DNA from: an uncultured Lactobacillales bacterium
GTDB lineage: Bacteria > Pseudomonadota > Alphaproteobacteria > CAAHEQ01 > UBA3637
Reading direction: 5' to 3'
DNA length: 64,000 nucleotides
Assembly (NCBI GenBank): GCA_964414185.1
Contig: CAYPVK010000005.1
Coordinates: 30,876-94,875, forward strand
Shown here: in pieces, positions 24,045 to 63,942 of the stretch
Layout of the letters: every line of letters begins with the position of its first letter
Position numbering within the stretch: position 1 is the first letter of the stretch
The notes under the pieces: model-generated
Told to the model about the DNA's origin: nothing
The model's database searches: none
What the model saw: the letters and a program-made list of their open reading frames with translations, nothing else
Translations under genes and position numbers: made by a program

Positions 24045-24683
24045 ATGCGTAAAATTTTATTGACATTGGTATTGGCATCGTTGTTGACCGCTTGTGCAAC
24101 CGACCCGTATACGGGCGAAAGCAAAGTATCCAAGACCGCTTGGGGAACGGGTATCGGTGCGGCCGCCGGTGCGGGAATCGGCGCTTTGGCGGGCGGTAAA
24201 AAAGGCGCTTTAATCGGCGCCGGCGCCGGTGCTTTGGTCGGTGTCGGGGGTGGTGCCTATATGGACATTCAAGCGCGCAAATTGCGTGAAGAATTGCAAG
24301 GCACCGGCGTACAGGTAGCACAGGAAGGCGGCCGCGTTTATTTGATTATGCCGGGCAATGTAACGTTTGATACAAACCAAGCGACCATTCGTCCCGGGTT
24401 TCAACCGGTTTTAAATTCCGTTGCTAAGGTTATTAACGAATACGACAAAACAATGGTGGAAATCATCGGGTATACCGATTCGACGGGCAGTGCCGCTACC
24501 AATAATGCATTATCGTTGCGCCGCGCCAATGCCGTTTCGAATTATTTGCGCTTGCAAGGCGTTGACGGCAACCGTATCGTAACGGATGGGTTGGGTTCTC
24601 AAAATCCGATTGCTTCCAATGCAACGGCCGCCGGGCGCGAACAAAACAGACGAGTGGAAATTACGTTAATTAACCGTCAATAA
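24045..24683 (+). CDS. OmpA-family lipoprotein with glycine-zipper segment
   Basis: Lipobox LLTAC, then the Gly-zipper GIGAAAGAGIGALAGGKKGALIGAGAGALVGVGGG, then an OmpA_C-like domain (IIGYTDSTGSAATNNALSLRRANAV). Confidence 0.75.
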   Translation: MRKILLTLVLASLLTACATDPYTGESKVSKTAWGTGIGAAAGAGIGALAGGKKGALIGAGAGALVGVGGGAYMDIQARKLREELQGTGVQVAQEGGRVYLIMPGNVTFDTNQATIRPGFQPVLNSVAKVINEYDKTMVEIIGYTDSTGSAATNNALSLRRANAVSNYLRLQGVDGNRIVTDGLGSQNPIASNATAAGREQNRRVEITLINRQ

Positions 24684-41479: not shown

Positions 41480-42157
41480 ATGGAACTGAAGTATATTGCC
41501 TATTTGATTTTGTTTTATACCGGGCTGGCAATTGTCTTGTGCGTATATTTGTTTTTGTTTTTTATGGATTTGTACCGTCGCGGCACATGGTTTTCTTTAA
41601 AAAAGAAACCCCATACGCCAAAGGCATCTCCGGCGTCTCCCCCCGTAGATTTAAATCAGCCGAATATATTTGGGCAAACACCGTTGATAGGGCTTGTCCG
41701 ACATGCCAAATCGGTGGATATGGTTGAGCGGGTTTTGGAAAAGTCCGATGTCAATGTAACCGATGAAAACGGTTATACGGCTTTGATGGCGGCGGCCGAA
41801 TTCAATACGAATGCCGCTATTATGGCGGCTTTGGTCAGTTCGGGTGCCGATGTATTTGCCACCGAATACAGAAAAAGGCGGACGGCGTTGCATATTGCCG
41901 CTTGCAACAATACGAATCCGGATGTTATTCGTGTTTTGTCGGCGGCCGGTGCAGATGTCAATGCGGCGGATGTGAAAGGAAAAACACCGTTGATGCGCGC
42001 GGCGCAACATAATCCCAATCCGGCTGTGATTGACGTTTTGTTGAAAGCGGGCGCAGATAAGACCATGCGCAGTTTGTCCGGGAAGACCGCTTTTGATTAT
42101 GCCCATGAAAATGGGGAAATATATAAAACACAAAGTTATTATGATTTAGAGGTATAG
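41480..42157 (+). CDS. Membrane-anchored ankyrin-repeat protein
   Basis: An N-terminal TM helix (YIAYLILFYTGLAIVLCVYLFLFF) is followed by about four ANK repeats (GYTALMAAAEFN, RRTALHIAACNN, GKTPLMRAAQHN, GKTAFDYA). Confidence 0.75.
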   Translation: MELKYIAYLILFYTGLAIVLCVYLFLFFMDLYRRGTWFSLKKKPHTPKASPASPPVDLNQPNIFGQTPLIGLVRHAKSVDMVERVLEKSDVNVTDENGYTALMAAAEFNTNAAIMAALVSSGADVFATEYRKRRTALHIAACNNTNPDVIRVLSAAGADVNAADVKGKTPLMRAAQHNPNPAVIDVLLKAGADKTMRSLSGKTAFDYAHENGEIYKTQSYYDLEV

Positions 42158-51541: not shown

Positions 51542-52558
51542 TTATCTCGAATTTTCGCGTAAAACGGGTCGCCCCTTAAAAAAATAAGGCCTGTAGCGCA
51601 TTTCGGGCGTTGTATATCCGTCGTTCGGGCGATTTGCCAAACGTTCCGTGATAAGGGGTTTAAATTTTTTGTCAAAAAGATTTGAAGCTGTTTTGAGAGC
51701 ATGAGCAGAGACTTGAACAGGATTTTCGTATGCTTTGTAAACTTCATCTTGTCCGGAAAAAATTTTAAACAGCTGAGCCAATTGCATATCGCGTACCAAA
51801 TTGATATCAATGAATATCGGAATCTTTTTTTCCAGCGAATTATAATGTTCGACAATTTTTTCGGTTAATACCCACGGCAAAACGTCTGGTTTATTTACAG
51901 TGGGTGCAAAATCGGCATAAATATCTTGGCAGCAAATCATTTGCCCGAAATCAATAACGGATACTTTTTGGGTGTTTTTATCGTATAAAATGTTTTCGGA
52001 ACGTAAATCATCGTGTGCGATTGATTGCGTTTGACCGATAAAGTCCAATTTATAAACATCCATAACCTTTTGATAAACCGATGCCATTTCAGAACCGGTT
52101 ATTTTTTCAATATTTTTATCGAAACGCCAATCCGAAAAATTGCTTCTTGGTTTTACATTTTCTTCAATCGACAAACGGCTTTGATGCATTTCATTGAGAA
52201 AGACTGCGATATTTTGGGCAATTTTGTTTTGTTCCGCCGGGGTAAGCGAAGCATACAATTTTGATGTTAATTGTTCGCCCGATGCGTATTCTTCAATGAC
52301 ATAATTTGAACTTTTTTTTAAGATTTTGGGAATAAAAACGGGCACATTCAAATTTTCGATGCTTTTTAACCCTTCGCAAGCAAAATCCATTTCATCTTGC
52401 CAACGTTCTTTGCTTATTCCTTGTCGCGGGCGTTTGATTACGATGGGCATACCGTCTTTTTCGGTTAAATAAGCGGTGGAAAAATATCCTTTTCCCAAAA
52501 ATTTTTCTTCTTTTTCGGAATGTTGTTTTCTTTTTAAAATTTGAATCAATTTGGACAT
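51542..52558 (-). CDS. Kinase-fold phosphotransferase (APH/ePK-like), paralogue 1
   Basis: Gly-rich loop FLGKGYFSTAY, beta3 Lys in PIVIKRP, hinge EEYASG, catalytic loop HDDLRSENILYD and VIDFG. Start at MSKLIQIL (52558) or 52603. Confidence 0.6.
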   Translation of the reverse strand: MSKLIQILKRKQHSEKEEKFLGKGYFSTAYLTEKDGMPIVIKRPRQGISKERWQDEMDFACEGLKSIENLNVPVFIPKILKKSSNYVIEEYASGEQLTSKLYASLTPAEQNKIAQNIAVFLNEMHQSRLSIEENVKPRSNFSDWRFDKNIEKITGSEMASVYQKVMDVYKLDFIGQTQSIAHDDLRSENILYDKNTQKVSVIDFGQMICCQDIYADFAPTVNKPDVLPWVLTEKIVEHYNSLEKKIPIFIDINLVRDMQLAQLFKIFSGQDEVYKAYENPVQVSAHALKTASNLFDKKFKPLITERLANRPNDGYTTPEMRYRPYFFKGRPVLRENSR

Positions 52559-52662
52559 GTTTTTTATCCGTTTGCGTTTATAAATTTTATTATAACATAA
52601 CAAACGGATTTTGTCATAAAATTTTAAATTTGTTTCGAAAACTTTTTTGTTATGGAAAATGT

Positions 52663-53721
52663 TTATTCGCGTATACGCACATAAGATTTATACCGTTGAA
52701 TAATGTTTTGTTGCAGATTGTGCGTTTTGCAAATGCCGATACGGTTACCCAAGCGTTCGTTAATTAACGGTTTAAATTCATTTTCATAAAATTCGGATGC
52801 TTGTTGCACCGTTTGTTCGGGAATATCGCCGATTTGCACGTTGCCTTGATAGGTATTGAAAGAAGTTCCCGATGCCGTATGAAAAATTCGAGGCAATTCC
52901 AAATTTGATTTAAAAATTTTACATTCAAATAATTTTAAGATTTGTTGGATTTGTAAATCTCGAACCAATTCCATGTCAATATGGACAGGCATTTTTTTAT
53001 CAAGGCTGTTATAAATTTTAATGATTTTTTGTGTTAATTCCCAAGGTAACAAGCCCGCTTTGCTGATGGTCGGAGCAAAATCGTAATATAAGTCCTTATC
53101 ATTGCCCGCTTCGCCGAAATCAATAATTTTCACCCTTTTTGTGCTCATGTCATAAAGTACGTTGCCGGGCCGTAAATCTTGGTGCGTGTAAGCAATATGC
53201 TTGCCCAAATGTTTCGTATCGTAAATATGGTGCATATTTGATTGAAACAAATCCCAATCTTTATTGCCGATTGCATATCGGATAATTGCGCTGCTGGCGT
53301 ATCCCAACGGTTCGGGGGTAACCGGCACTTTATTTTCGATTGTTTCCAAATGAAATTGGTGTAATGTATTCAAAAAAACGGCAATATCATAGGCAATTTG
53401 ATTTTGTTCTTGTTTCGGCAAAGAAGCATATAAAAGGTTAGTCAACGGTTGACCGGGTAAATAATTTTCAATTAACGTATTGTCTTGAAAAGATTCTATT
53501 TCGGCAGTTTGAACCGGCGTATTGAATTCGCGGAGTACTTTTTGCATATCATAAGCTTTTTGAGCCGATTCGCGCCACGGAATAATCATTTGTTCGTTTT
53601 TGGGTTTTTTGACGGCATATGCTTTATCGCCCGTCTCATAAACATTGACTACGCTGAAATTTCCAAGGAATTGATGGGTTCGTTTGTATCCTTTTAAAAT
53701 TAAAAAATTTTCGGAAATCAT
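52663..53721 (-). CDS. Kinase-fold phosphotransferase (APH/ePK-like), paralogue 2
   Basis: 352 aa with AYAVKKP, catalytic loop HQDLRPGNVLYD and IIDFGEAG. The C-terminal FKPLINERLGNR is shared with paralogue 1 (FKPLITERLANR). AAGAGG RBS 4 nt upstream of the ATG. Confidence 0.6.
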   Translation of the reverse strand: MISENFLILKGYKRTHQFLGNFSVVNVYETGDKAYAVKKPKNEQMIIPWRESAQKAYDMQKVLREFNTPVQTAEIESFQDNTLIENYLPGQPLTNLLYASLPKQEQNQIAYDIAVFLNTLHQFHLETIENKVPVTPEPLGYASSAIIRYAIGNKDWDLFQSNMHHIYDTKHLGKHIAYTHQDLRPGNVLYDMSTKRVKIIDFGEAGNDKDLYYDFAPTISKAGLLPWELTQKIIKIYNSLDKKMPVHIDMELVRDLQIQQILKLFECKIFKSNLELPRIFHTASGTSFNTYQGNVQIGDIPEQTVQQASEFYENEFKPLINERLGNRIGICKTHNLQQNIIQRYKSYVRIRE

Positions 53722-53747: not shown

Positions 53748-53776
53748 ATTATATACGAAGGACGATATTTTGTCAA
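53748..53776 (-). promoter_or_regulatory. Consensus sigma-70 promoter driving the kinase pair
   Basis: The minus strand reads TTGACA (53776-53771), a 17-nt spacer, then TATAAT (53753-53748), about 27 nt upstream of the paralogue-2 start codon. Confidence 0.6.
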
Positions 53777-53837: not shown

Positions 53838-53868
53838 TATAAACAAAAACGCCCCGTAAAGGGGCGTT
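53838..53868 (-). terminator. Intrinsic terminator at the end of the pil-like operon
   Basis: AACGCCCC-TTTAC-GGGGCGTT hairpin followed by TTTTTGTTTAT on the minus strand, 20 nt after the pilR-like stop. Confidence 0.7.
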
Positions 53869-53888: not shown

Positions 53889-55028
53889 TTACGAACCCAA
53901 CCCCATGCCGGACACCATTTGGTCTTGCATGGCGAACGTTCCCATAACCACCCATGCGATAATGGTCGCAATCATCAAAATCGCGATACCGTTTAACACG
54001 GCGGCTTTTTGTTCAATATCTTGAACCGAAGATTCCAACCAATCGTCGGACAAGTGTTCCAATGCTTCGGGGAAGTTATCCAATTCGGCGTAAATGCGCA
54101 AATCGCCGACAACTTCTTCATCCGGAAAGCCTTGGCCCGTTTTATAAAGTGCATCGCCCAAGTTATCACCGTTGTTGACGAAAATCAATGCTCTGTCAAT
54201 TCGGTAAAGCAAATATGGCGATGCGTCAGAGCGCAAAGACCGCAATGCTTTGGAAACAGGCGTGCCGGCCTTAACCAAAGCCGCCAAAGAAAGCAACCAA
54301 CCCACGCCGATAAAAATACGGTAAATGGACCACGGCGGAAATTTATCGAAGTTTTTACGCATACCCGATTTCCAACGCGGAAAAGTTAAAACGATAACCG
54401 TAAAAATAATCGGCAACGTGGCAAACAAAATAACAGGGTGTTGGTCCACAAAATTTGACAAGCCGACCAAAGAACCGGCCAACCCCGTCCAAATCAATGT
54501 CGGAACAGCGTCTACCATCGGCGGCACCATGAATTTGCCGACACCCCAAATCAAGAAAATAACCATGACCATCAAGAACATCGGATAACCCACGGCATTA
54601 TAAACGGGAGCTTTCATCCGATTCATCCCTTCCACCACTTTAATGGTGTTGGCAATGGCTTCTTCCAAATTGGCGACATCACCGACGGACAGCATCAAAA
54701 TTTCGGTTGACGGTGCCCAACCGCGCAACGCAACCGAAAAAGATTCACCGTTTTGGATTTTTTTCATCCATTCGGCAACGGCAATTGCCATCGTATCATC
54801 GGGTGATTTACCGTCTTTTGAAGCAATTTGATACATGCGGTCCAATGCATCCATCAAAGAGAATCTGTTTTTCAATAAGGCTCTGAGCTTTTTGTAAAAG
54901 GCCAAACGATCGCTTGTATACATACGAACCGTGGTACGCGCGTACCAATAATTGAGTACGTTCGTTCGGCTCATCCCCTTTTGAGCGATTTTACTGCGGC
55001 TGGATTTCGGCGGTTGCATTTCGGCCAT
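53889..55028 (-). CDS. Type IV pilus/T2SS inner-membrane platform protein, GspF/PilC family (R64 PilR-like)
   Basis: 379 aa. A cytoplasmic helical domain is followed by three TM segments (PMFLMVMVIFLIWGVGKFMVPP; VILFATLPIIFTVIVLTF; AAVLNGIAILMIATIIAWVVM). Last gene of the operon. Confidence 0.65.
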   Translation of the reverse strand: MAEMQPPKSSRSKIAQKGMSRTNVLNYWYARTTVRMYTSDRLAFYKKLRALLKNRFSLMDALDRMYQIASKDGKSPDDTMAIAVAEWMKKIQNGESFSVALRGWAPSTEILMLSVGDVANLEEAIANTIKVVEGMNRMKAPVYNAVGYPMFLMVMVIFLIWGVGKFMVPPMVDAVPTLIWTGLAGSLVGLSNFVDQHPVILFATLPIIFTVIVLTFPRWKSGMRKNFDKFPPWSIYRIFIGVGWLLSLAALVKAGTPVSKALRSLRSDASPYLLYRIDRALIFVNNGDNLGDALYKTGQGFPDEEVVGDLRIYAELDNFPEALEHLSDDWLESSVQDIEQKAAVLNGIAILMIATIIAWVVMGTFAMQDQMVSGMGLGS

Positions 55029-55042
55029 CGGTCAAACTCCTT

Positions 55043-57340
55043 TTAAACTGTAACGTCATTGAATAAACCTGTCCATCTTTCGACTTCGTCAATGTCAATG
55101 ACCCCTTTTAACATGCGTGCTTGGGCTGCTTCACGCAATGTGTGCCCGTTTAATTCCGTTACCCAATAATCCATGGCTTTTTTGGATTCGCCGCGGATCA
55201 TCAAATCCAAGAATGTTGCGTCGGGCAACAAAAATTCGCCCACGACGGTTCGCCCTTTCACACCGCGATATTCACAATGCTTACAACCCGGACCCCTTAA
55301 ATACGATAATTCAACCCCCATGTCGCCATACGCTTGGCGCAAACGTTGTACCGCCGGATTATCTAAACGGTCCTTTGCCCGGATACGGCAGTAAGGGCAA
55401 ATTTTACGGAACAAACGTTGAGACAACATCCCTTTCATAATACTCGGGTCTTGCAATTTAAAATCTTCCACGCCCATATCTTTTAAACGCATCATAATAG
55501 CCGGTGCCGAATTGGCGTGCAAAGTCGTCCAAACGCTGTGACCCGACAAAGCTCCGCGGAAAGCCAAGTCCGCCGCGGCCAATGTACGAATTTCCCCAAT
55601 CATCAATGCATCCGGGTCAGAACGCAAAGCGGCCGCCAAAGCTTTAGTAAATTCGCGGTCTTTAGCCTCTTCGGATGTTGCATTGGTCACGGGCATTTGG
55701 CGAGCACCCGGAATCGGGTATTCCGGCGGGTCTTCCACCGTAATCAGGTTGAGTTCGTAATTGCGTTCTTGCAACATTGAAATCATATTGCGTTGCAATG
55801 TTGTCGATTTACCGGAACCCGTCGGGCCGGCTACAATAACCATGCCGGTCGGAATAGCACGCATCCGATAAAATAATTCCGTTTCTTGCGGTTCAAAACC
55901 CAAAACGCTTAAATCACCGGCCGATTCGGCGTTGTCTTCATCATACAACAAACGCATAACAACATAACGCGTACCGAATGCAATCGGGTTAAATTGTAAA
56001 CGAATACCTTGTACGTTGCGTGGCAAAGTCAATTTGCCGTTTGAGCCGCGCAATGCCGTTTTTCCGACTTTTTGTGCAGCTTGATATTCATTTTGCGCGT
56101 AGTTGGCATCCGAAATATCGGCGGATGCAAATGCTGCGCGGACAAAGCTTTCACCCCAATCGCGATTATATTCCATTTCCGTTTGCATCAAACCGTTCAT
56201 ACGGAACATGACGGTCGTGTGGTCGGCCACAACAATGTGAATATCCGAAATGTGGTTAGCAGCGGCTTTTGAAACAATCGTTACAAAGTCGCGTTGCATA
56301 CGTGCTTGTTCTTGATTGGTTTCTTCCACGTCCGCCGGTGTTTTGGACCGCATTTTGCCGGCGTATTCGTAAATGTTGTTGATGACAACTTGGGGAACAT
56401 ATTCGGGTTGCCCGATTTGCAAACGGCGACGGCGCGTATCGGTTACGAACAACAGCGGCGGTCCGTCATATTTATGATTTTCGGCAACAAAAAAACGTCC
56501 GTTTGAAAAAAGTGCCAACATCGACCGTGTCGTATCGGATATGACATATGATCCGCCCGGTGCCGTAATACATTCGTTGCCGTTAGAAAATAATTCCTTT
56601 AGAAAATTCGATGAAGCATAATTTACTTTTTGGAGAGCATCTTCCCGCTTCAGTTGCTGAGTATTGCCTTTTTGAAGCGGCAATTGCGATTTAATGTTGT
56701 CTTTCGGTTTCGGTTGAATATTAATGCGTTCAATCGGAAACGATACTTTATCGGACGTATCTCTTGCTTGTGGGTGCAAATCCTTCGTCCGGAAATTTGT
56801 TGCTTCCCCGACGTTATTTGAAGATACAGTATCGGTGGAAATGGGATGGTCGGATTCGTTATTTGATTCGTTGGTGTTTTTGGTAAAATCGTCCGTATTT
56901 TCGGAGTCGTCTTCCGACATTTGCGGGATAACGGGCGTAGTCGGTATGACAGGGGGCATCGGTTCATCAGGTGAATTAATCATATTTTCTCCGCTGTCCG
57001 ATTCGATTGAATTTTCACCCTGTTTCGATTGTTCGAAAACAGTATCGTCCGTTTGACGATCAGATATATTTTCGATTTCATTTTGTGTTTCGTCAAAAGA
57101 ACGATTATTTTGTTCGCCGTTGTTTTCAAACGAACCATATTCGTCCGAATCTTTCGGCAAATTGGGTTCAAAGCCGGACGATTCGTTCGTATCTCCGCCG
57201 ATTTCGGGCAAAACGGGGGCATCATCCATAAATATGGCTTCAGTATCGACAAACGCATTTTTGTCATAAAAAGAACTCCCGCGCACCGGAGACGGCACGA
57301 GTTCCGAATTTGAAGAAAGCGTTTTATCCTGTTCAGCCAA
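55043..57340 (-). CDS. GspE/PilB-family secretion ATPase with ~270-aa acidic disordered N-terminal extension (R64 PilQ-like)
   Basis: Walker A VVAGPTGSGKSTTLQ, Asp/His boxes and the tetracysteine motif CPYCR...CKHCEYRG typical of GspE/PilB extension ATPases. The N-terminal third is Asp/Glu/Ser/Asn-rich low complexity. Confidence 0.8.
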   Translation of the reverse strand: MAEQDKTLSSNSELVPSPVRGSSFYDKNAFVDTEAIFMDDAPVLPEIGGDTNESSGFEPNLPKDSDEYGSFENNGEQNNRSFDETQNEIENISDRQTDDTVFEQSKQGENSIESDSGENMINSPDEPMPPVIPTTPVIPQMSEDDSENTDDFTKNTNESNNESDHPISTDTVSSNNVGEATNFRTKDLHPQARDTSDKVSFPIERINIQPKPKDNIKSQLPLQKGNTQQLKREDALQKVNYASSNFLKELFSNGNECITAPGGSYVISDTTRSMLALFSNGRFFVAENHKYDGPPLLFVTDTRRRRLQIGQPEYVPQVVINNIYEYAGKMRSKTPADVEETNQEQARMQRDFVTIVSKAAANHISDIHIVVADHTTVMFRMNGLMQTEMEYNRDWGESFVRAAFASADISDANYAQNEYQAAQKVGKTALRGSNGKLTLPRNVQGIRLQFNPIAFGTRYVVMRLLYDEDNAESAGDLSVLGFEPQETELFYRMRAIPTGMVIVAGPTGSGKSTTLQRNMISMLQERNYELNLITVEDPPEYPIPGARQMPVTNATSEEAKDREFTKALAAALRSDPDALMIGEIRTLAAADLAFRGALSGHSVWTTLHANSAPAIMMRLKDMGVEDFKLQDPSIMKGMLSQRLFRKICPYCRIRAKDRLDNPAVQRLRQAYGDMGVELSYLRGPGCKHCEYRGVKGRTVVGEFLLPDATFLDLMIRGESKKAMDYWVTELNGHTLREAAQARMLKGVIDIDEVERWTGLFNDVTV

Positions 57341-57366
57341 AGATTGTTACCCCCTTAATAATATCC

Positions 57367-58332
57367 TTATTCAACGGGATCGGCCGGTACCGTCGGCGTT
57401 GAAACTTTTTTCGGGCCTGCTAAAACAAGAGAACTTTCGTTATCGCCGTAAACGACAAAAACGGCATCTTTCGTGATTTTTTTGACAATATGACCGGATG
57501 GTAACCTGTCATCTACACTGACAGTCAATACAGAATCGTCTTCCAAATCACGCAATTGAGCTTTTAATATGCCGCGAATCCCTTTTACGCTGGTCAGAAC
57601 ATATAAATCGCTGAAAACAGCATTCGTTTTTATCGGATTGATTTCGATAGCCGGAGCATCGCTCGTGTTATCATTTGCCGCTTGTGCTTTTTCCAACGCT
57701 TCGGCACGCAATTGTTCACGCAAAGCTTCCGCTTCGGCAATTTTTTGTTCAAGTGCTGCGGCTTCTTCTTTCTTTTGTTCGGCTTCTAAACGGATTTTTT
57801 CCTGTTCCTGCCACCATTTGATACGGCTGCGAACAACTTCTTCGCGTTTGGCAATTTCATCCAAACGGGCTTGACGATAAGTTGCTTTTAATTTTTCCAA
57901 ATCATTTTTAAGCGTTTCTTTTTGCGTTTGCAATTTCAAAAAGACATTGCCGCGTTCCAAGTCAGCCATTTCTTGGAAAACTTCACTGGTAATACGCCCG
58001 AGCAATTGTTCACTCGGTAAATCGCGCGGAGAAACGGAACGTTCCATCGAAGACGGACCGGTAATAATGCTTTCCGAAACACCGGGCAAAGGTGCTAATT
58101 CCAACGAACCCAAAGTCGGACGATTGGGGAAATCGACGACTTGCTTGGATTCCGTAGGGACGTCATTTAATTCTTTTTCAAGAAGGGCGCGGCTCGCTTC
58201 ATCCAAAACTTTCGGAGCTTCCAAATTTGTGTTTGCTTCCTGAGCCTTAACCGGCATACCGACAAGGGCAACGGTCAGCATTAAAGCGCTTAATAATGAT
58301 AAAGGTTTATTTGGCATAAATTCTCCCTTCAT
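57367..58332 (-). CDS. Periplasmic coiled-coil protein, PilP-like
   Basis: Signal peptide, then ~90 aa of Glu/Lys/Ala-rich coiled coil (EEKIRLEAEQKKEEAAALEQKIAEAEALREQLRAEALE), then a C-terminal beta domain. Position matches pilP in R64-type operons. Confidence 0.4.
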   Translation of the reverse strand: MKGEFMPNKPLSLLSALMLTVALVGMPVKAQEANTNLEAPKVLDEASRALLEKELNDVPTESKQVVDFPNRPTLGSLELAPLPGVSESIITGPSSMERSVSPRDLPSEQLLGRITSEVFQEMADLERGNVFLKLQTQKETLKNDLEKLKATYRQARLDEIAKREEVVRSRIKWWQEQEKIRLEAEQKKEEAAALEQKIAEAEALREQLRAEALEKAQAANDNTSDAPAIEINPIKTNAVFSDLYVLTSVKGIRGILKAQLRDLEDDSVLTVSVDDRLPSGHIVKKITKDAVFVVYGDNESSLVLAGPKKVSTPTVPADPVE

Positions 58333-59638
58333 ACTTCCATTTGTTATTGACTGATTCTACTGCTGGGTTATACTCGATTTTTAACAATTCCAGGCCTGAA
58401 AACTTATCAAAGAACGGTTTCCATTCCCATGGCGTATAGGCCGATACGACCGTAAAGGCGTAATAAGTATAATTTTGTTGATTCGGCGGCGGTGTACCGT
58501 CGGGATTGTTTGGCGGATCTTGAACCGTTTGCACCGAAAATTGGATGGGCAAGTTGGTCGCTTGCGAAATATCCGTTAATTCTTCACGGATTTGAGAAGC
58601 CGTTAACGTCGGAATGGAAGCTTCCAACGGAATATCGTTAAATGTGATACGACCCGACGCAATATTGCCCGATTCGTTTAATTGAATGTCGATACGGGAA
58701 ATTTTATATTCTTCAATCGCTTTTTTTACCCAAGCTATACGCCCGCCCGGATTCCATGATTTTGTCCAATTTGTCGTGATGCCGGTCGGCGTGCAAACAA
58801 CCGTACCCAATTGCCAACCCGGTATTGTCAGGTTGTTTAATTGATACGAATTGTTCCAACATTTATTTAAAAAGACATTTATATCCGGTAATTTTTCCCA
58901 CGGTTTCGGCTTTTCAGGCGCCGGCACGACCGGTTCAATGACAGTTGGTGTCGGTACGGCCACAATCTTTTCTTGAGTAAAGACGGTTTCCCACAGCGAA
59001 CTGACCAAATAAACAACGCCGCCCAATAACGCAATAACCACTAAGGTAATGCCGATTAAAAATTGCGTGCGTTTTACGGCGCTGAGTTCGACTAAACGAA
59101 TTTTGCGTGCGTTCTTAACGACGGGTGCCAGTTCAACTTCTTCGGATCCTTCAATTTCCCAATTTTTAGGCGCGATTTTTATGTCCCAATCCGGAACGGC
59201 CATCATTGAAAAAAACGCGCGTTGAGCATCTTCTTCATTCGTAAACAGACGGTCTTCTTCGGACAAAATCAAATCGTTACGGATGGAAACAAACCACCAA
59301 CCTTCTTTGACCTTAAAGACGGCACAAACGGATGTTTTGTCGGCGTAATAGCTGGCAACGGCGGCAGCGGCAGACGGTTGCCCTTCGCGATGGCCCATTG
59401 ATTTGCGTCCGACACCGTATTGGGGAGCGGATGCGGGCCTTAAACAATACAGATCCAAGCCCGGTTCGCTTTCAATAACTTCGCGAATTTCGGGAATCGG
59501 ATCATCCGGATTTTGCAACGATTGCCACATCAACCCGACGGCATAAATCGTACCGCCGACGACAATGGTACCCAATAGATCTTGTCGTTCCTGATATTGT
59601 GTCGGTGCGCCCGCTTGCGAAATGTCTGTATTTTCCAC
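58307..59638 (-). CDS. Bitopic inner-membrane protein, PilO (R64/PF06864)-like
   Basis: 443 aa with a single central TM (LIGITLVVIALLGGVVYLVSSLW). Size and position match R64 PilO (431 aa). Overlaps the downstream gene by 26 nt. Confidence 0.4.
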   Translation of the reverse strand: MENTDISQAGAPTQYQERQDLLGTIVVGGTIYAVGLMWQSLQNPDDPIPEIREVIESEPGLDLYCLRPASAPQYGVGRKSMGHREGQPSAAAAVASYYADKTSVCAVFKVKEGWWFVSIRNDLILSEEDRLFTNEEDAQRAFFSMMAVPDWDIKIAPKNWEIEGSEEVELAPVVKNARKIRLVELSAVKRTQFLIGITLVVIALLGGVVYLVSSLWETVFTQEKIVAVPTPTVIEPVVPAPEKPKPWEKLPDINVFLNKCWNNSYQLNNLTIPGWQLGTVVCTPTGITTNWTKSWNPGGRIAWVKKAIEEYKISRIDIQLNESGNIASGRITFNDIPLEASIPTLTASQIREELTDISQATNLPIQFSVQTVQDPPNNPDGTPPPNQQNYTYYAFTVVSAYTPWEWKPFFDKFSGLELLKIEYNPAVESVNNKWKYEGRIYAK

Positions 59639-59668
59639 TGAAGCTTACTCCTACTTAACTTACCCTAT

Positions 59669-61345
59669 TTAAAAGTCGCGCATCCGGGTTTCGGGCGATA
59701 AAGGCGATTCCAAAACCTCAGGTGTCAACAAGATAACCAATACGTTGCGTACGCGTTTCGAATAGGATTTTCCGCCCAGTAAGCTCATTTTCGCTCTGCC
59801 GATGCCGGAAGTTTCCGTTTGGTTTTGAATGCTTTCAAAACCGGTCAAAACAAGAGTGGAACCCGAACGCATGGCAATTTCTTGCATAAAGCCGCGCATT
59901 TGCATTTTCGGCAATTGTACGATGGATTGGTCCGTATCTCCGGTATTGTCATCGTCATCTTCGTTTTCGTTTTCGTTTTCGTCTTCATCGGAATTATTAT
60001 TATTATTTGAATTTGTTCCCGAAGACGAGAATGTTGTCAATGAAATAAGATCCGTCAAATTCAATGAGAACAAAACAATCAAACGGCCGTGATCCAAAAT
60101 CCGCGGTAAAATTTCCATCGTGAAACCGTAATTCAACGTATCCGTTTCATAATCGACTTCCGTATTTCTGTCCGTACCGCTGCCGTTTGTTGTAACATTT
60201 GTTTCTTTCACATAGTTTTCTGATGTTGAAATTTGAACGGGCGCAATTTTATTGTTCAACGTCGTAACGGAAGAGCTGGTCACCAATGATGTTTTTCCTT
60301 GAGTTGACAATGCTTGAATAATGGCACCCGAATCTTTCCATCTGGAATTCGGATCAATCAAAGTCATCGAAAGCAAGCCCGCGACACCGGATGTGCCGGA
60401 ACCGGCCGCAGCGTCAATGAAGTACGGACTGTAATAATTGCCGGACAATTTATTGCTGTTGAAAACGGCTTTTAAATCCAAACCGTAATTGTCTTCGGCA
60501 TTGATTTCAACTTGCAAAATTTTTACCGAAATAGCAACTTGTCTGGACATTTTTTCATTCCAGTTATTAATATATGACGCTACTTTGCGCATGACAAACG
60601 GGCTGGCCGTAACGGTAACGGTACCCGTTGCGCGGCTGAAAGAAAGTTTCCCTTCTTCACCGACCACTTGTTCAATCCCTTTTTCAATGCTGTCCCATAA
60701 GGCCAAATTGGCGGAAGTGGACAAATTCGACGAAGAATTGCCTTCCGTGGAACCGTTTGCCCCCATTGACGCCCCTTGAATTGAAGCATCCATTTGTGTT
60801 TCATTCGGTAAAGCATACAATGTAAAGACACGTGTTTCTTTCGTATAGAAAGTTATTACGCCGCCGCGGTAACGCCACCAAACGCCATAGCGGTTGGAAA
60901 TATAATTCAACAGACCGCTGAGTTTACCCGAATAATTAACGGGCACCGTTTCGGTCGGTACGGCGTTTTCGGCCTTCAAATCATCCAAACGAACCGAAAT
61001 GCCCGTCATATCCGTCAATTCTTGGGCTAAAACAGGCAAAGTTTCTTCCTCGGCAATGGAAACGGTAATACCGTCATCTTTTTCAGCCCAAGCGGGCAGG
61101 GCATCACCTTCCATAATCTTAACGCTTTGATTACCGAGCCAAATATCGTTTTTGGAACGGACCGTGTCGACCGGCTCCGGAATATCGGGTACTTGCGCTT
61201 GTTGCAAAGCTTCTTCAGCGCGTTCCAAAGTCGTTTCGATTTTGGCATTGGTTTCTTTCGTGTATTTTTCACAGGAGGTTAAGGCTAAAACCCCTAAAAC
61301 AACACCGACAAATAACCCCAGTTTCTTATTAATCTGCATTTTCAT
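59669..61345 (-). CDS. Secretin lipoprotein (R64 PilN-like) with acidic low-complexity insert
   Basis: Lipobox ALTSC. The C-terminal secretin domain ends ...GIGRAKMSLLGGKSYSKRVRNVLVILLTPEVL. An internal insert NSNNNNNSDEDENENENEDDDDNTGD is encoded partly by (GTTTTC)3 on the plus strand. Confidence 0.7.
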   Translation of the reverse strand: MKMQINKKLGLFVGVVLGVLALTSCEKYTKETNAKIETTLERAEEALQQAQVPDIPEPVDTVRSKNDIWLGNQSVKIMEGDALPAWAEKDDGITVSIAEEETLPVLAQELTDMTGISVRLDDLKAENAVPTETVPVNYSGKLSGLLNYISNRYGVWWRYRGGVITFYTKETRVFTLYALPNETQMDASIQGASMGANGSTEGNSSSNLSTSANLALWDSIEKGIEQVVGEEGKLSFSRATGTVTVTASPFVMRKVASYINNWNEKMSRQVAISVKILQVEINAEDNYGLDLKAVFNSNKLSGNYYSPYFIDAAAGSGTSGVAGLLSMTLIDPNSRWKDSGAIIQALSTQGKTSLVTSSSVTTLNNKIAPVQISTSENYVKETNVTTNGSGTDRNTEVDYETDTLNYGFTMEILPRILDHGRLIVLFSLNLTDLISLTTFSSSGTNSNNNNNSDEDENENENEDDDDNTGDTDQSIVQLPKMQMRGFMQEIAMRSGSTLVLTGFESIQNQTETSGIGRAKMSLLGGKSYSKRVRNVLVILLTPEVLESPLSPETRMRDF

Positions 61346-62153
61346 CCTCCTGCGTGTTAATTACCAACACTCTGTTTCCTTTATAGAATGTGCCGATGGG
61401 GGCAGGCGTCGCCCTGGCAAAAGAGCGAATGAGAGCACCGGATACTTCCGTGAATGTGCCGCGGAATACAACGCCTGCTTCCAAATGATAATCTCTTTCC
61501 AATTTCCAAATAATCGTCCAACCGGATTTTTCACCCCAATCCATCAACAAAGTACGCAATGTTGAACCGGCCGTTGCTTCCCAGTCATGGCATTCTTCGC
61601 CATAAGCAACTTTTTTGGCCAATGCGGATTTTTGGTTGACAACCGTTTTGATTGTTTTTTCTTCAACTTTTGAAGGAGCGACAACCGATACGACAGGCGC
61701 GTTTGTGCTTTCGGTTGTTGTTGTTTCCACGACGGTTGTTTCAACAACTTTTGTTCCCGTTTTATCTGCTGCTTTCGTTTCGATGACTTTCGTTTCGGAG
61801 GCTTGTGTTTGTGCTTCAATTTCAACGACTTGCGGCTTTTGCGCTTTGTCCTTTACGGATACGCCTTTGTCTCCGGCCGGTTTTGAACGGGCCAAATCGC
61901 CGTTTCCCGCAGAAATAACCACCGGTTTTTTATTTGACGTTGTCGTGGTAACCGTATATGTATCGGAAGAAAATTCGGGCAAATACATGCCGGTTTGATT
62001 ATCCGTTACCATAACACATTCAATCCCGGCTTCATCGTAGCAATCCGGGACAATAACAATGTCTTCTTGGTCGTTTGCGGCGCAACCTGCCAATCCCAAC
62101 GAGCAGGAAATGACGGCCACATACGCGGTTTGTTTCAATAAACTGGGTTTCAT
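61329..62153 (-). CDS. Lipoprotein with TcpQ-like C-terminal domain (PilL-like)
   Basis: Lipobox LAGCAAND, a Thr/Val/Glu-rich linker, and the C-terminal ECHDWEATAGSTLRTLLMDWGEKSGWTIIWKL...GTFTEVSGALIRSF resembling the TcpQ-type domain of PilL proteins. Overlaps the secretin gene by 17 nt. Confidence 0.45.
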   Translation of the reverse strand: MKPSLLKQTAYVAVISCSLGLAGCAANDQEDIVIVPDCYDEAGIECVMVTDNQTGMYLPEFSSDTYTVTTTTSNKKPVVISAGNGDLARSKPAGDKGVSVKDKAQKPQVVEIEAQTQASETKVIETKAADKTGTKVVETTVVETTTTESTNAPVVSVVAPSKVEEKTIKTVVNQKSALAKKVAYGEECHDWEATAGSTLRTLLMDWGEKSGWTIIWKLERDYHLEAGVVFRGTFTEVSGALIRSFARATPAPIGTFYKGNRVLVINTQEDENAD

Positions 62154-62237
62154 TTTTTACTCCTTCTTTTTACAATATCGTATTTTTGGGGAATATACAA
62201 TATTATTTTTTTATTTTCCTTTTTTACTTTGACGCAT

Positions 62238-63275
62238 CTACCATGCCGTTGTTTGTTTTTCAATCTTTCTGCCCGTGCTCGATTCGGTAACGATTACCTG
62301 TTGAGGATCGCTTTTAAGCGCGGTGCGCAAAACCAAACTGTTCGGTTCGCGGTTTGTTTGAAGCATGCGGATTTGGTGAGATGACAAACCGTTGCTCATC
62401 AAAGTATTGCGCACAAGTGCCAATCGTTTGTATTGAATTTCGGGGTCTTGATTGCTGACGCGGACTTCTACAACAAGACGCGGGTCGGCCAAAGCGCTTT
62501 TGGCATACGCTTTAATCCACTTTAAAGTTTGTCCCGAAAAATCGGTTGCGTTTTTATAAAAAGATACTTTGATTTCCTGAGGCATGATAAAACCGGGCTT
62601 TTCCCCTTGTTCGGAAGCACTCAAGAATTGATCGGCGTATTCCGACGGAATGACGTGGCGCACATACTTGTCGGGAGTGGGTTCGACCGTCGGTTTTTCG
62701 GGTAATGGTGCCAACGGAATAAGTATCGGCGTTGTCCGAGCCGTTTTGGTTACGCGTGTCGTGGTCGTTGTTGTCGTTGTTCCGCCGGCGGTGTGGCCGG
62801 TACCGAGTTGTTTCGGCGTACGTGTGCCGTTTGGCGATGTTGTGCCGGTTGCATTCGCGGATAACGAAGCGACATCAATGTCAATATTGATATCTTCACC
62901 GACGGGGGCAGGTGTCGCACCGACGTTTTGCGATGTTAAAACGATCGGCAATTCTTGCGTTGTCGTACGGGTCATTGTCGTGGTGGTGGTTGTTGTTTTT
63001 GTACTTTCGCCTTCTTTGACTTCAATCATGTCATTAGAGGCGGTTTCGCCTTCGACGGGCAACAAATAAGTCGGTAATAAGAAATCGCCTTCGGCGGTAA
63101 TGGTTGCAACGGCATCTTCGGCCGTATCGTCTTTTTCATCCGTCAACAGTTCGGCGGTTTCGTTCGGGTCACCGTCGCCTTGCGCAATTTCCGCATAAAC
63201 GGGATGTATGCACAGCATTCCCAAAATCATGCAGATGCCTAATGACGAAGTAAAAAAGAGTTTATGTTTTACCAT
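62238..63275 (-). CDS. Secreted Thr-rich protein with OmpA-like peptidoglycan-binding C-terminal domain (first gene of operon)
   Basis: Signal peptide, two poly-Thr runs (TKTTTTTTTMTRTTT; GGTTTTTTTTRVTKTARTT), then a C-terminus ...LVVEVRVSNQDPEIQYKRLALVRNTLMSNGLSSHQI matching the OmpA_C pattern. Confidence 0.4.
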   Translation of the reverse strand: MVKHKLFFTSSLGICMILGMLCIHPVYAEIAQGDGDPNETAELLTDEKDDTAEDAVATITAEGDFLLPTYLLPVEGETASNDMIEVKEGESTKTTTTTTTMTRTTTQELPIVLTSQNVGATPAPVGEDINIDIDVASLSANATGTTSPNGTRTPKQLGTGHTAGGTTTTTTTTRVTKTARTTPILIPLAPLPEKPTVEPTPDKYVRHVIPSEYADQFLSASEQGEKPGFIMPQEIKVSFYKNATDFSGQTLKWIKAYAKSALADPRLVVEVRVSNQDPEIQYKRLALVRNTLMSNGLSSHQIRMLQTNREPNSLVLRTALKSDPQQVIVTESSTGRKIEKQTTAW

Positions 63276-63532
63276 GGCTTGTTCGTCCCTTCATAAGAGT
63301 TTAAGCGGTTTTCCCGATAAAATTATACAATTCATATCATCCTATGAAACTGTTTTATAGCATAGAATGTTTTGGAATGAAAGAAAAATATTTAATTTTT
63401 TACTAACAATTTAGCATTTTTTTTGTTATTTCAAAAAAACAGTAAAAAAGGACTGGACAAAACACCGAAAACAATGTAAAATAATATTAAGCTCTTGAAA
63501 CGGGGCTTAATTACTTAAACAAGGAGGTTATT

Positions 63533-63895
63533 ATGAATACTTTTGTTAAATATTTGTCCTTTTTTGCTATCGTGTCTATAGCTTTCTTGGCAACGGATGC
63601 GTTAGCACAAACTGCCGGCGGTGTCGGTAGTAAGGATGCTTTTTCTGTTGTTTTGACACGTATGGTTACGACATTCAGAAACGTTCGTTCCGTGATTTTC
63701 GTCGTCGGCGGTTTCGGTTTGGTCGGTTTGGCCTTTGCCGCTATTTTCGGTAAAGTTAAATGGGCTTGGTTGGCGGCTTTGGCTGTCGGTTTGGCTATCG
63801 TTGCCATCGCCGGTGCGGTTGTTGACTATGTTACGCAAGCAGACTCTGCACAAAACGTATACACACCGAGCCAATTCGGCGATACGTTGTACTAA
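63533..63895 (+). CDS. VirB2/TrbC-family T4SS pilin-like protein
   Basis: AAGGAGG RBS. Sec signal ending ALA, then a mature N-terminus QTAGGVG (compare QSAGGG of VirB2), then two hydrophobic helices (VIFVVGGFGLVGLAFAAIF and WLAALAVGLAIVAIAGAVV) separated by GKVKWA. 120 aa. Confidence 0.45.
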   Translation: MNTFVKYLSFFAIVSIAFLATDALAQTAGGVGSKDAFSVVLTRMVTTFRNVRSVIFVVGGFGLVGLAFAAIFGKVKWAWLAALAVGLAIVAIAGAVVDYVTQADSAQNVYTPSQFGDTLY

Positions 63896-63911: not shown

Positions 63912-63942
63912 AAAGGCCGCTTTTTTAAGCGGCCTTTTTTTT
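63912..63942 (+). terminator. Intrinsic terminator after the VirB2-like gene
   Basis: AAAGGCCGC-TTTTTTAA-GCGGCCTTT hairpin followed by T8. Confidence 0.75.

What the first reader, a model, noticed from the sequence alone, without database searches (positions are those of the whole stretch)
53889..63275. Complete R64/PAPI-1-style type IVb pilus biogenesis operon with no pilin, peptidase or adhesin genes
Seven tightly packed minus-strand genes (gaps of 30 nt or less, or overlaps) encode, in order: an OmpA-like Thr-rich protein, a TcpQ-domain lipoprotein, a lipoprotein secretin, a bitopic PilO-like protein, a coiled-coil PilP-like protein, a GspE-type ATPase with Zn tetracysteine, and a GspF-type platform. 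The order matches pilL-pilN-pilO-pilP-pilQ-pilR of the IncI1 R64 thin pilus and the PAPI-1/ICE type IVb pili. Here the operon stops at a strong terminator directly after the pilR-like gene. I find no class-III prepilin (no G|FTLIE-type N-terminus in any ORF), no prepilin peptidase, no PilT/PilV and no adjacent relaxase or T4SS core genes. In known systems this module is plasmid- or ICE-borne and serves conjugation in liquid. A chromosomal copy lacking its filament subunit may be a remnant, may use a pilin encoded elsewhere, or may work as a stand-alone secretion machine.
Basis: partly seen in the sequence, partly recalled or inferred. Interest (0 to 1): 0.7.

Follow-up and report, generated by a model that had tools for sequence, protein, structure and literature searches.

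The report
Pilus machine operon beside lone virB2
This is a conserved, working-looking type IVb pilus assembly operon in an uncultured gut alphaproteobacterium whose pilin genes lie elsewhere in the genome, and whose overlooked neighbour is a virB2 pilin gene that in sister lineages begins a whole type IV secretion operon; it is an interesting variant, not a new kind of machine.

Summary
The seven minus-strand genes are real. Five are confirmed by Pfam (TcpQ, Secretin, PAP_PilO, T2SSE, T2SSF). The secretin scores best with the PilN type IVB family, and the coiled-coil protein is PilP-like at family level. "OmpA-like" for gene 1 is not supported.

No prepilin, prepilin peptidase or T4SS core gene was found in the 64-kb window or about 8 kb beyond it in near-identical relatives.

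The operon is conserved in order in about 60 species of gut and rumen Alphaproteobacteria MAGs. Against a near relative, dN/dS is 0.03–0.18, so it is not a remnant.

The clade encodes many unlinked PilS/Bundlin-type pilins with a distinctive G|RSMVEML class-III signal. A sister lineage has such a pilin directly after the platform gene.

In sister lineages the pil operon lies back-to-back with virB2(s), a VirB3-sized ORF and virB4. The window keeps only virB2.

Best reading: a chromosomal R64-family type IVb pilus machine that uses pilins encoded in trans, next to one surviving gene of an associated T4SS. This is a new variant of a known kind, of moderate interest.

The parts
62238..63275 (-). 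Gene 1: 345-aa secreted, Thr-rich protein of unknown family with a conserved C-terminal domain. It is the first gene of the operon and is specific to this lineage and its sister group.
   Evidence: ORF. No Pfam or NCBIfam hit. Orthologs in 55 loci. 0 of 30 orthologs hit OmpA and there is no PDB profile hit. Single-sequence AF2 gives beta-alpha-beta-alpha-beta-beta at pLDDT 59, and Foldseek returns only IF3-C-like generic hits. The C-terminus is 38-43% identical in most sister-group loci (26% in L136).
61329..62153 (-). Gene 2: TcpQ-domain lipoprotein (PilL/TcpQ-like), with lipobox LAGC.
   Evidence: PF10671 TcpQ, 61.7 bits. Sequence.
59669..61345 (-). Gene 3: PilN-type lipoprotein secretin, with lipobox LTSC.
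   Evidence: PF00263 Secretin. TIGR02520 PilN type IVB scores 280.3 bits (cut-off 287.65) against 32 bits for GspD. 26-28% identical to annotated plasmid PilN proteins.
58307..59638 (-). Gene 4: bitopic PilO2-like protein (PF06864).
   Evidence: PAP_PilO, 105 bits, over the full model length. More than 276 homologs, some annotated 'type 4b pilus protein PilO2'. 26% identical to PilO2 of a Bosea plasmid.
57367..58332 (-). Gene 5: PilP-like periplasmic coiled-coil protein.
   Evidence: TIGR03021 pilP_fam scores 27.6 bits (cut-off 34.65) for the window copy. 25 of 30 orthologs hit it, best 2.1e-9.
55043..57340 (-). Gene 6: GspE/PilB-class assembly ATPase (PilQ-like) with a tetracysteine motif and an acidic N-terminal extension of about 340 aa whose length varies between species.
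   Evidence: T2SSE, 228 bits. GspE 231 bits and PilB 210 bits, both far below their equivalog cut-offs. CPYC...CKHC and the Walker A motif are visible. 64% identical to the sister-group ATPase.
53889..55028 (-). Gene 7: GspF/PilC-class inner-membrane platform (PilR-like).
   Evidence: T2SSF, 89 bits, in two stretches.
53839..53868 (-). Intrinsic terminator that ends the operon (8-bp GC-rich stem followed by TTTTTGTTT).
   Evidence: Read directly. The hairpin is listed. The next gene has its own perfect TTGACA-17-TATAAT promoter at 53776..53748.
63276..63532 (.). Divergent 257-bp control region between gene 1 and the virB2-like gene. It holds two conserved non-coding blocks at about 63442..63462 (TTTTGTCCAG..CTTTTTTA, covering the TGGACA -35-like hexamer of the virB2 promoter) and about 63385..63409 (TTGTTAGTAAAAAATTAAATATTTT).
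   Evidence: Alignment of nine intergenic regions from species whose synonymous sites are saturated. Promoter-like site at 63454..63482 on the + strand. Sequence.
63533..63895 (+). TrbC/VirB2-family pilin gene (120 aa). It has a Sec signal peptide ending ALA|Q, two TM helices and a GK..W loop. It sits where sister lineages have the first gene of a virB2 / VirB3-sized ORF / virB4 T4SS operon.
   Evidence: PF04956, 33.2 bits (cut-off 27.9). All 32 aligned orthologs hit TrbC, best 5.4e-12. AF2 gives a helical hairpin at pLDDT 68. It is the divergent neighbour of gene 1 in about 38 of 55 species loci. dN/dS is 0.10-0.16. Layout in relatives.
63912..63937 (+). Intrinsic terminator directly after the virB2-like gene (11-bp stem plus a T-run). 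In this lineage no virB3 or virB4 follows.
   Evidence: Sequence. Downstream content in near-identical relatives L001 and L080.

Best explanation
The seven genes encode the envelope-spanning assembly core of a chromosomal type IVb pilus of the R64/PAPI-1 (PilN/PilO2) family. The parts are a TcpQ-domain lipoprotein and a PilN lipoprotein secretin in the outer membrane, PilO2-like and PilP-like connectors, a PilQ-like extension ATPase, a PilR-like platform, and one lineage-specific secreted protein (gene 1).

The filament subunits are not missing from the organism's lineage. They are PilS/Bundlin-type pilins with a short basic leader and a characteristic G|RSM(V/I)EMLGVLA N-terminus. They are encoded at unlinked and variable chromosomal sites, often in several copies, and some carry very large C-terminal domains. 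An unlinked prepilin peptidase must process them. It was not found here; that step is inferred, and PAPI-1 sets a precedent by using the T4aP peptidase PilD. The machine then polymerises the pilins through the secretin, most plausibly for adhesion or aggregation in the gut (inferred).

The divergent virB2/trbC gene is what remains, at this locus, of a VirB-type T4SS operon that lies back-to-back with the pil operon in sister lineages. This echoes the pairing of thin pilus and T4SS in R64 and in ICEs. Whether the window's genome keeps the rest of that T4SS elsewhere is unknown.
For: Family assignment. The same core order in annotated Bosea and Thalassospira plasmid loci, which also carry a pilin and/or PilV, plus in Thalassospira a peptidase and Dot/Tra genes.

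Maintained, not decaying:
- 62 loci from about 60 species keep all seven genes in order.
- dN/dS against L001 is 0.03-0.18 for all eight genes.
- Both flanks are highly variable, with about 21 and 31 neighbour families.

Pilins in trans:
- G|RSMVEML proteins occur in 7 clade loci at variable positions, one directly after gene 7 (L009) and one directly before gene 1 (L061).
- The L029 protein hits Pfam PilS at 31.4 bits (cut-off 22).
- The L151 protein passes both PilS and Bundlin.
- The family has 2,965 members at E<=1e-3, several per genome.
- The sister locus L071 has gene 1 to gene 7, a 196-aa ORF and then a Bundlin/PilS pilin with the same N-terminus. Its machine is 33-64% identical to the window's.
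- The distant L067 also has a canonical prepilin after the platform gene.

virB2 origin:
- 14 metagenome loci show g6..g1 <-|-> virB2 x1-4, a VirB3-sized ORF and VirB4.
- VirB4 is confirmed by Pfam at 59.9 bits (cut-off 21), and by 36% identity over 98% of its length to an annotated VirB4.
- These loci group with L071.

Precedent for an unlinked peptidase: PMC3984277.
Against: - No pilin and no prepilin peptidase from the window's own genome was seen. Only 64 kb, plus about 8 kb in near-identical relatives, could be inspected.
- The link between the G|RSMVEML pilins and this particular machine rests on one sister locus with the pilin in cis and on proximity in 7 of about 60 loci.
- No peptidase was found in any flank.
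- Arg at +1 of the predicted cleavage site is unusual. The N_methyl motif scores are below threshold (14-15 bits against 21.2), although they equal that of the L067 pilin used as control.
- The cis pilin and the adjacent T4SS operon of the sister group were not seen together on one contig.
- Adhesion as the function is pure inference.
Confidence: 0.66

Rival explanations
1. Hybrid machine. After the T4SS genes left this locus, the retained VirB2-like membrane protein was co-opted by the type IVb machine, as a subunit, substrate or inner-membrane partner. A type IV filament machine would then be handling a T4SS-type pilin.
For: - The virB2-like gene is the immediate divergent neighbour of gene 1 in about 38 of 55 species loci, despite about 21 different far-side neighbours.
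- Three reciprocal look-ups from the VirB2 side all land next to gene 1.
- It is under purifying selection, with dN/dS 0.10-0.16.
- The divergent promoter region has conserved blocks.
- No VirB4 lies within 10 kb in any of the roughly 60 GTDB loci of the window's clade.
- It has no detectable similarity to any plasmid T4SS pilin by tblastn.
Against: - Relatives show the plain origin of the adjacency: a divergent virB2 / VirB3-sized ORF / virB4 operon.
- The gene is absent from the locus in about 4 monophyletic subclades (17 species) whose operon is intact.
- Orphan copies sit in housekeeping contexts elsewhere (L083, L145, L151), so cis linkage is not required.
- A T4SS core elsewhere in the genome is not excluded.
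- No known type IV filament machine uses a Sec-cleaved two-TM subunit (my own knowledge).
- Conventional pilins exist in the clade.
Confidence: 0.09
2. The operon works mainly as a type II-secretion-like or surface-display device. A short pseudopilus would export or present large proteins that carry the class-III signal, rather than building long adhesive pili.
For: - Some G|RSMVEML proteins are 700-1040 aa long (L018, L061, L063).
- No retraction ATPase and no PilV adhesin is encoded in cis.
- The ATPase scores slightly higher with GspE than with PilB (231 vs 210 bits).
Against: - The secretin is clearly PilN-type, not GspD (280 vs 32 bits).
- PilO2, PilP and TcpQ are type IVb pilus parts.
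- No GspC/L/M and no pseudopilin set is present.
- Short Bundlin/PilS-type major-pilin-like proteins are abundant.
- Both ATPase scores are far below either equivalog cut-off, so they do not discriminate.
Confidence: 0.12
3. Decaying remnant of an integrated plasmid or ICE pil module that lost its pilin, peptidase and adhesin and no longer functions.
For: - Canonical relatives are plasmid-borne and carry pilS, pilV, a peptidase and T4SS genes in cis.
- Here those genes are absent, and only one T4SS gene (virB2) remains nearby.
Against: - All seven ORFs are intact in about 60 species spanning PilO identities of roughly 50-99%.
- dN/dS is 0.03-0.18 at unsaturated dS.
- GC content is not atypical, and no integrase or tRNA boundary lies nearby.
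- Promoter blocks and terminators are conserved.
Confidence: 0.03

Closest known systems
IncI1 plasmid R64 thin pilus (pilI-pilV) and related S. Typhi / IncI2 TP114 systems
   Same: PilL/TcpQ-domain lipoprotein, PilN lipoprotein secretin, PilO (PF06864), PilP, PilQ ATPase and PilR platform in the same order. The pilus system is paired with a T4SS in related lineages.
   Different: - Only about 26-28% identity to the nearest plasmid PilN/PilO2 proteins.
- Chromosomal and vertically inherited.
- No pilS, pilT, pilU or pilV and no shufflon in cis.
- An extra first gene (gene 1).
- The partner T4SS in relatives is VirB-type (virB2, VirB3-sized ORF, virB4) rather than the IncI Tra/Trb type. The IncI type is from my own knowledge.
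- No relaxase seen.
PAPI-1 / pKLC102 ICE pil2 cluster (pilL2N2O2P2Q2R2S2T2V2M2) of P. aeruginosa
   Same: Same L-N-O-P-Q-R core order. No dedicated prepilin peptidase in the cluster, and the pilin is processed by a peptidase encoded elsewhere (PMC3984277).
   Different: PAPI-1 keeps the pilS2 pilin, pilT2, the pilV2 adhesin and pilM2 in cis, and is part of a mobile ICE. Here the pilins are unlinked and the locus sits among housekeeping genes.
Burkholderia pseudomallei Tfp7 locus (chromosome 2; PilO2Bp)
   Same: A chromosomal R64-variant type IVb locus with TcpQ, without pilU2, and with a proposed trans-acting peptidase (PMC3984277).
   Different: Tfp7 retains pilS2 and pilV2 in the operon. It has no virB2 neighbour and no gene 1 homolog. 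Neither point was tested against Tfp7 directly.
Dispersed or amplified VirB-type T4SS genes of host-associated Alphaproteobacteria (Rickettsiales rvh; Bartonella Trw) - recalled from my own knowledge, not tested
   Same: virB2 paralogs are scattered or tandemly multiplied, away from the rest of the T4SS (orphans L083, L145 and L151; 1-4 tandem copies in L101, L136 and others).
   Different: No sequence-level comparison with rvh or Trw was made. The VirB5-like reading of the secreted proteins after VirB4 found no support. The pairing with a type IVb pilus operon is not a feature I know from those systems.

Membership tests
R64/PAPI-1-type (PilN/PilO2) type IVb pilus machinery | PilO2 protein (Pfam PF06864), bitopic | tested here: met
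   105.2 bits against a 26.7 cut-off, over the full model length. The TM helix is visible.
R64/PAPI-1-type (PilN/PilO2) type IVb pilus machinery | PilN-family lipoprotein secretin (TIGR02520) | tested here: inconclusive
   280.3 bits, just under the 287.65 cut-off, but far above MshL (108), GspD (32) and SctC (27). The lipobox LTSC is present.
R64/PAPI-1-type (PilN/PilO2) type IVb pilus machinery | TcpQ-domain lipoprotein (PilL/TcpQ), PilP, GspE-class ATPase and GspF-class platform in L-N-O-P-Q-R order | tested here: met
   The same order occurs in annotated Bosea and Thalassospira plasmid loci. PilP is below cut-off for the window copy, but 25 of 30 orthologs hit it.
R64/PAPI-1-type (PilN/PilO2) type IVb pilus machinery | Cognate PilS-type major pilin encoded in the cluster | tested here: not met
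   None in the window by regex or profile scans. PilS/Bundlin-type pilins exist unlinked in the clade, and in cis in sister locus L071.
R64/PAPI-1-type (PilN/PilO2) type IVb pilus machinery | Prepilin peptidase (PilU) in the cluster | tested here: not met
   No Pfam hit to a peptidase among the window ORFs scanned. None recurs in the clustered locus flanks. PAPI-1 and Tfp7 also lack it. Presence elsewhere in the genome is not testable here.
R64/PAPI-1-type (PilN/PilO2) type IVb pilus machinery | PilV adhesin/shufflon; plasmid or ICE location; role in conjugation | tested here: not met
   No PilV and no integrase or relaxase. The flanks are housekeeping genes. A role in conjugation is not testable with these tools.
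Type II secretion system (Gsp) | GspD secretin, GspC/L/M, pseudopilins GspG-K | tested here: not met
   GspD model scores 32 bits against a 351 cut-off. GspE and GspF models are far below their cut-offs. There are no further Gsp genes in the operon.
Tad/Flp (type IVc) pilus | CpaF/TadA ATPase, TadB/C platform pair, RcpA/CpaC secretin, Flp pilin | tested here: not met
   The TadA-family model scores 41 bits against a 373 cut-off. There is a single T2SSF platform, a PilN-type secretin and no Flp-like ORF.
TrbC/VirB2 T4SS pilin family (the 63533..63895 product) | Match to PF04956 above the gathering score; Sec signal peptide plus two TM helices joined by a short basic loop | tested here: met
   33.2 bits against 27.9. 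32 of 32 orthologs hit the model. Topology is seen in the alignment and the AF2 model. PDB sequence and fold searches were uninformative.
TrbC/VirB2 T4SS pilin family (the 63533..63895 product) | Encoded with VirB3/VirB4 and the other T4SS core genes | tested here: not met
   A terminator follows the gene. No T4SS genes occur in the window or 8 kb beyond it in relatives. The feature is met in sister lineages.
   0 of 30 orthologs hit it at E<=0.1. No PDB profile hit. The Foldseek list contains no OmpA-like hit, though the model is low-confidence. Positive control: window 24045..24683 scores 81.7 bits.

The most novel reading that the evidence does not exclude
In the window's clade the VirB-type T4SS core has been lost. 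The solitary, conserved VirB2-like membrane protein now works with the type IVb pilus machine, as a co-assembled subunit, substrate or inner-membrane partner. That would be the first case of a type IV filament machine using a T4SS-type pilin.
Probability: 0.08. Interest if true: 0.85.

Novelty: new variant of a known kind. Interest (0 to 1): 0.45.

Why it matters
- It shows that the R64/PAPI-1 thin-pilus machine, usually treated as an accessory of plasmids and ICEs, has been fixed in the chromosome and inherited vertically across a large uncultured clade of gut and rumen Alphaproteobacteria.
- The machine operon has been separated from its pilins. These have expanded into a very large family (about 3,000 sequences), including modular pilins of 700-1,000 aa. 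That pattern suggests diversifying surface interactions in the gut.
- The back-to-back arrangement with a VirB-type T4SS in sister lineages, and the retention of only virB2 here, gives a natural series for studying how type IVb pili and T4SSs are coupled and uncoupled.
- For annotation pipelines, it warns that 'pilin-less' type IVb loci need a genome-wide search with relaxed class-III motifs. Here Arg at +1 defeats the standard G|F motif.

Tried and rejected
- Exact look-up of the gene 1 protein found nothing on record.
- The strict prepilin regex (G-x4-E plus a hydrophobic tail) found nothing in the window. A relaxed regex and a profile were needed to find the G|RSMVEML pilins in relatives.
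- PDB profile search and Foldseek on the VirB2-like model were uninformative, with no hit at E<=0.001.
- tblastn of the VirB2-like protein against plasmids gave no match at E<=1.
The model is low-confidence.
- The idea that the secreted proteins after VirB4 are VirB5/TrbJ-like found no plasmid match and is left unverified.
- The VirB3 assignment rests on size and position only, since Pfam found nothing.
- My first context labelling of the VirB2 tree was wrong, because the large VirB2-domain query hit every VirB2 gene. It was redone.
- Literature searches found no description of a type IVb machine paired with VirB2 in this clade. A paper on Rs-D84/Enterousia gut alphaproteobacteria could not be tied to this clade.
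- Considered and rejected: a kinase-operon link. The two downstream kinases occur only in the nearest relative and have their own promoter.
Full report
**1. Observation**

The seven minus-strand ORFs are at the stated coordinates. Pfam supports five of them:
- TcpQ (61329..62153)
- Secretin (59669..61345)
- PAP_PilO (58307..59638)
- T2SSE (55043..57340)
- T2SSF (53889..55028)

NCBIfam places the secretin with the PilN type IVB family, at 280.3 bits and just under the 287.65 cut-off. GspD scores only 32 bits.

The coiled-coil protein is PilP-like. The window copy scores 27.6 bits against a 34.65 cut-off, but 25 of 30 orthologs hit TIGR03021.

The lipoboxes, the PilO TM helix, the Walker A motif and the CPYC...CKHC tetracysteine are visible in the translations.

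A GC-rich hairpin plus a T-run follows the platform gene. The next gene has its own perfect sigma-70 promoter.

Three details of the observation are wrong:
- 'OmpA-like' for gene 1 finds no support. None of 30 orthologs hits OmpA, there is no PDB profile hit, and the fold matches are generic. A true OmpA protein in the same window scores 81.7 bits.
- The gap between gene 1 and gene 2 is 84 nt, not 30 or less.
- A 120-aa TrbC/VirB2-family gene lies 257 bp upstream on the other strand, at 63533..63895. It scores 33.2 bits on PF04956 against a cut-off of 27.9.

**2. What the window lacks**

Regex and profile scans in six frames found no class-III prepilin in the 64 kb. A bona fide pilin in locus L067 was the positive control.

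Pfam scans of about 50 window ORFs show housekeeping genes: eno, kdsA, secG, tpiA, hisS, comEC, ligA, recN, bamD, plsX, fabH and a MacAB-TolC-type pump. No peptidase, relaxase or T4SS core gene appears.

In two near-identical relatives the DNA beyond the window edge carries a small regulator-like ORF, a two-component system, a superoxide dismutase and an epimerase. These relatives are L001 (PilO 99% identical) and L080 (VirB2-like protein 94% identical). Nothing pilus-related is there.

**3. Conservation**

The PilO-like protein has hundreds of homologs, almost all in uncultured Alphaproteobacteria MAGs.

A scan of one genome per GTDB species returned 62 loci, from ruminant, rabbit and human gut MAGs. 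Wherever the contig allows, all seven genes are present in the same order.

Against L001, where dS is unsaturated, dN/dS is 0.03-0.18 for all seven genes and for the virB2-like gene.

The genes on both sides of the block differ widely between species, with about 21 and 31 neighbour families.

This is a maintained chromosomal system, not a remnant.

**4. Relation to canonical systems**

The nearest annotated plasmid relatives are in Bosea, Thalassospira and Cupriavidus, at only 26-28% identity. They share the order TcpQ, PilN, PilO2, a hypothetical, ATPase, platform. In cis they also carry a second ATPase and a major pilin and/or PilV. Thalassospira adds a prepilin peptidase and Dot/Tra-type T4SS genes.

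PMC3984277 documents three relevant points:
- PAPI-1 is pilL2N2O2P2Q2R2S2T2V2M2 without pilU2, and its pilin is cut by the T4aP peptidase PilD.
- The chromosomal B. pseudomallei Tfp7 locus also lacks pilU2.
- All the loci it describes keep pilS2 in cis.

So the missing peptidase has precedent. The missing pilin is the unusual feature.

**5. The pilins are elsewhere**

A relaxed scan found proteins with a short basic leader, Gly at -1, Glu at +5 and the N-terminus G|RSM(V/I)EMLGVLAI(I/V)GVLS. They occur in seven clade loci at variable positions. One sits directly after gene 7 (L009) and one directly before gene 1 (L061). Sizes run from 155 to 1,041 aa.

Curated models support them as type IVb pilins:
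- The L029 protein passes Pfam PilS (31.4 bits against 22).
- The L151 protein passes both PilS and Bundlin.
- Their N_methyl scores equal that of the L067 control pilin.

The family has 2,965 members at E<=1e-3, several per genome.

The sister locus L071 has homologs of all seven genes, then a 196-aa ORF, then a Bundlin/PilS pilin with the same N-terminus. Identities to the window are ATPase 64%, platform 53%, TcpQ 52%, secretin 37% and PilO 33%.

The distant locus L067 also has a canonical prepilin after its platform gene.

I infer that the window's machine assembles trans-encoded pilins of this type, after cleavage by an unlinked peptidase. That peptidase has not been found.

**6. The virB2 neighbour**

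Its family shows a Sec signal peptide, two TM helices and a basic loop. All 32 aligned members hit Pfam TrbC.

It is the immediate divergent neighbour of gene 1 in about 38 of 55 species loci, sometimes in two tandem copies. It is absent from about four monophyletic subclades whose operon is intact.

Three look-ups that started from VirB2-like proteins all landed beside gene 1.

Two non-coding blocks in the shared intergenic region are conserved across species with saturated synonymous sites.

A metagenome scan seeded with the VirB2-like family explains the adjacency. Fourteen loci show this layout:

g6-g5-g4-g3-g2-g1 <-|-> virB2 (x1-4), a large protein with an internal VirB2-like domain, a VirB3-sized ORF, VirB4

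VirB4 is confirmed by Pfam at 59.9 bits against a cut-off of 21. It is also 36% identical over 98% of its length to an annotated VirB4.

These loci belong to the same sister group as L071.

Other copies are T4SS-linked without a pil operon, or are orphans among housekeeping genes.

None of the roughly 60 loci of the window's own clade has VirB4 within 10 kb.

The simplest reading is that the window's virB2 gene is the retained first gene of a T4SS operon that once lay back-to-back with the pil operon.

The data leave two things open: whether a T4SS core survives elsewhere in this genome, and whether the lone VirB2-like protein has taken on a role with the pilus machine. The second is the most novel reading, and I give it under 10%.

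**7. Verdict**

This is an R64-family type IVb machine operon, chromosomal and without a pilin in cis. It is not a remnant, it is not demonstrably pilin-less at genome level, and it is not isolated from T4SS genes.

It is a new variant of a known kind. Interest is moderate. The appealing aspects are the large unlinked pilin repertoire, the chromosomal fixation across a gut clade, and the series from coupled to uncoupled type IVb pilus and T4SS.

**Limits**
- The source genome could not be searched as a whole.
- Taxonomy below 'Alphaproteobacteria' was not established.
- The trees are neighbour-joining without support values.
- The VirB3 and VirB5-like assignments are unverified.

Noticed in passing
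window 51542..53721 (-): Two paralogous 352/353-aa APH/Pkinase-like kinase genes directly downstream of the operon, in the lowest-GC part of the window (36%). The first has a perfect TTGACA-17-TATAAT promoter. They occur only in the nearest relative (L001), not in other clade loci. They may be recently acquired, eukaryote-like kinases.
   Followed up: partly
window 41480..42157 (+): A 225-aa ankyrin-repeat protein among housekeeping genes. This is a eukaryote-like domain often seen in host-associated bacteria.
   Followed up: no
L018:1089-3257(-), L061:2953-6078(+), L063:2883-5306(+): Very large proteins (722-1,041 aa) that carry the same class-III G|R(S/T)M.E N-terminus as the short pilins. 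They may be modular pilins with bulky C-terminal domains. One has a Cys-rich repeat, and none has a Pfam domain.
   Followed up: partly
L137:7490-11002, L110:2739-5603, L148:2475-3866 and homologs in L111, L116, L158: In the sister-group T4SS operons, the tandem virB2 genes are followed by a 460-1,170-aa secreted protein with an internal, sub-threshold TrbC/VirB2-like domain (about 17.5 bits). This giant VirB2-fusion-like protein has unknown function.
   Followed up: no
L096:11280-16253, L099:4393-9384, L136:12629-16072: After VirB4 come several secreted paralogs (223-759 aa) whose mature N-termini share a (F/W)P(V/T)(F/L/I)D motif. I suspected VirB5/TrbJ-like proteins, but tblastn against plasmids found nothing.
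   Followed up: partly
window 55043..57340 (-), N-terminal ~340 aa: The ATPase has a long acidic, low-complexity N-terminal extension. Its length varies widely across the clade (total protein length about 550-980 aa).
   Followed up: no
L001:108-2706; about 24 clade loci; also L067:2288-4868: An OmpR-type response regulator, a HisKA kinase and a roughly 150-180-aa upstream ORF recur on the gene 1 side of the block in about 24 species, and also in the distant L067. This may be a regulator of the locus or simply old synteny.
   Followed up: no
L004:15278-21323 and about 10 other loci: A phage-like gene block (capsid, nozzle-like protein, cell-wall hydrolase) lies directly downstream of the platform gene in about 11 loci.
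   Followed up: no
window 63511..63807 (-): A 98-aa ORF on the strand opposite the virB2-like gene. It has no family hit and overlaps the conserved + strand gene, so it is almost certainly spurious.
   Followed up: yes
window 39373..41442 (+): A ComEC-family competence channel gene lies 12 kb from the pilus operon. Whether the type IVb machine contributes to DNA uptake was not examined.
   Followed up: no
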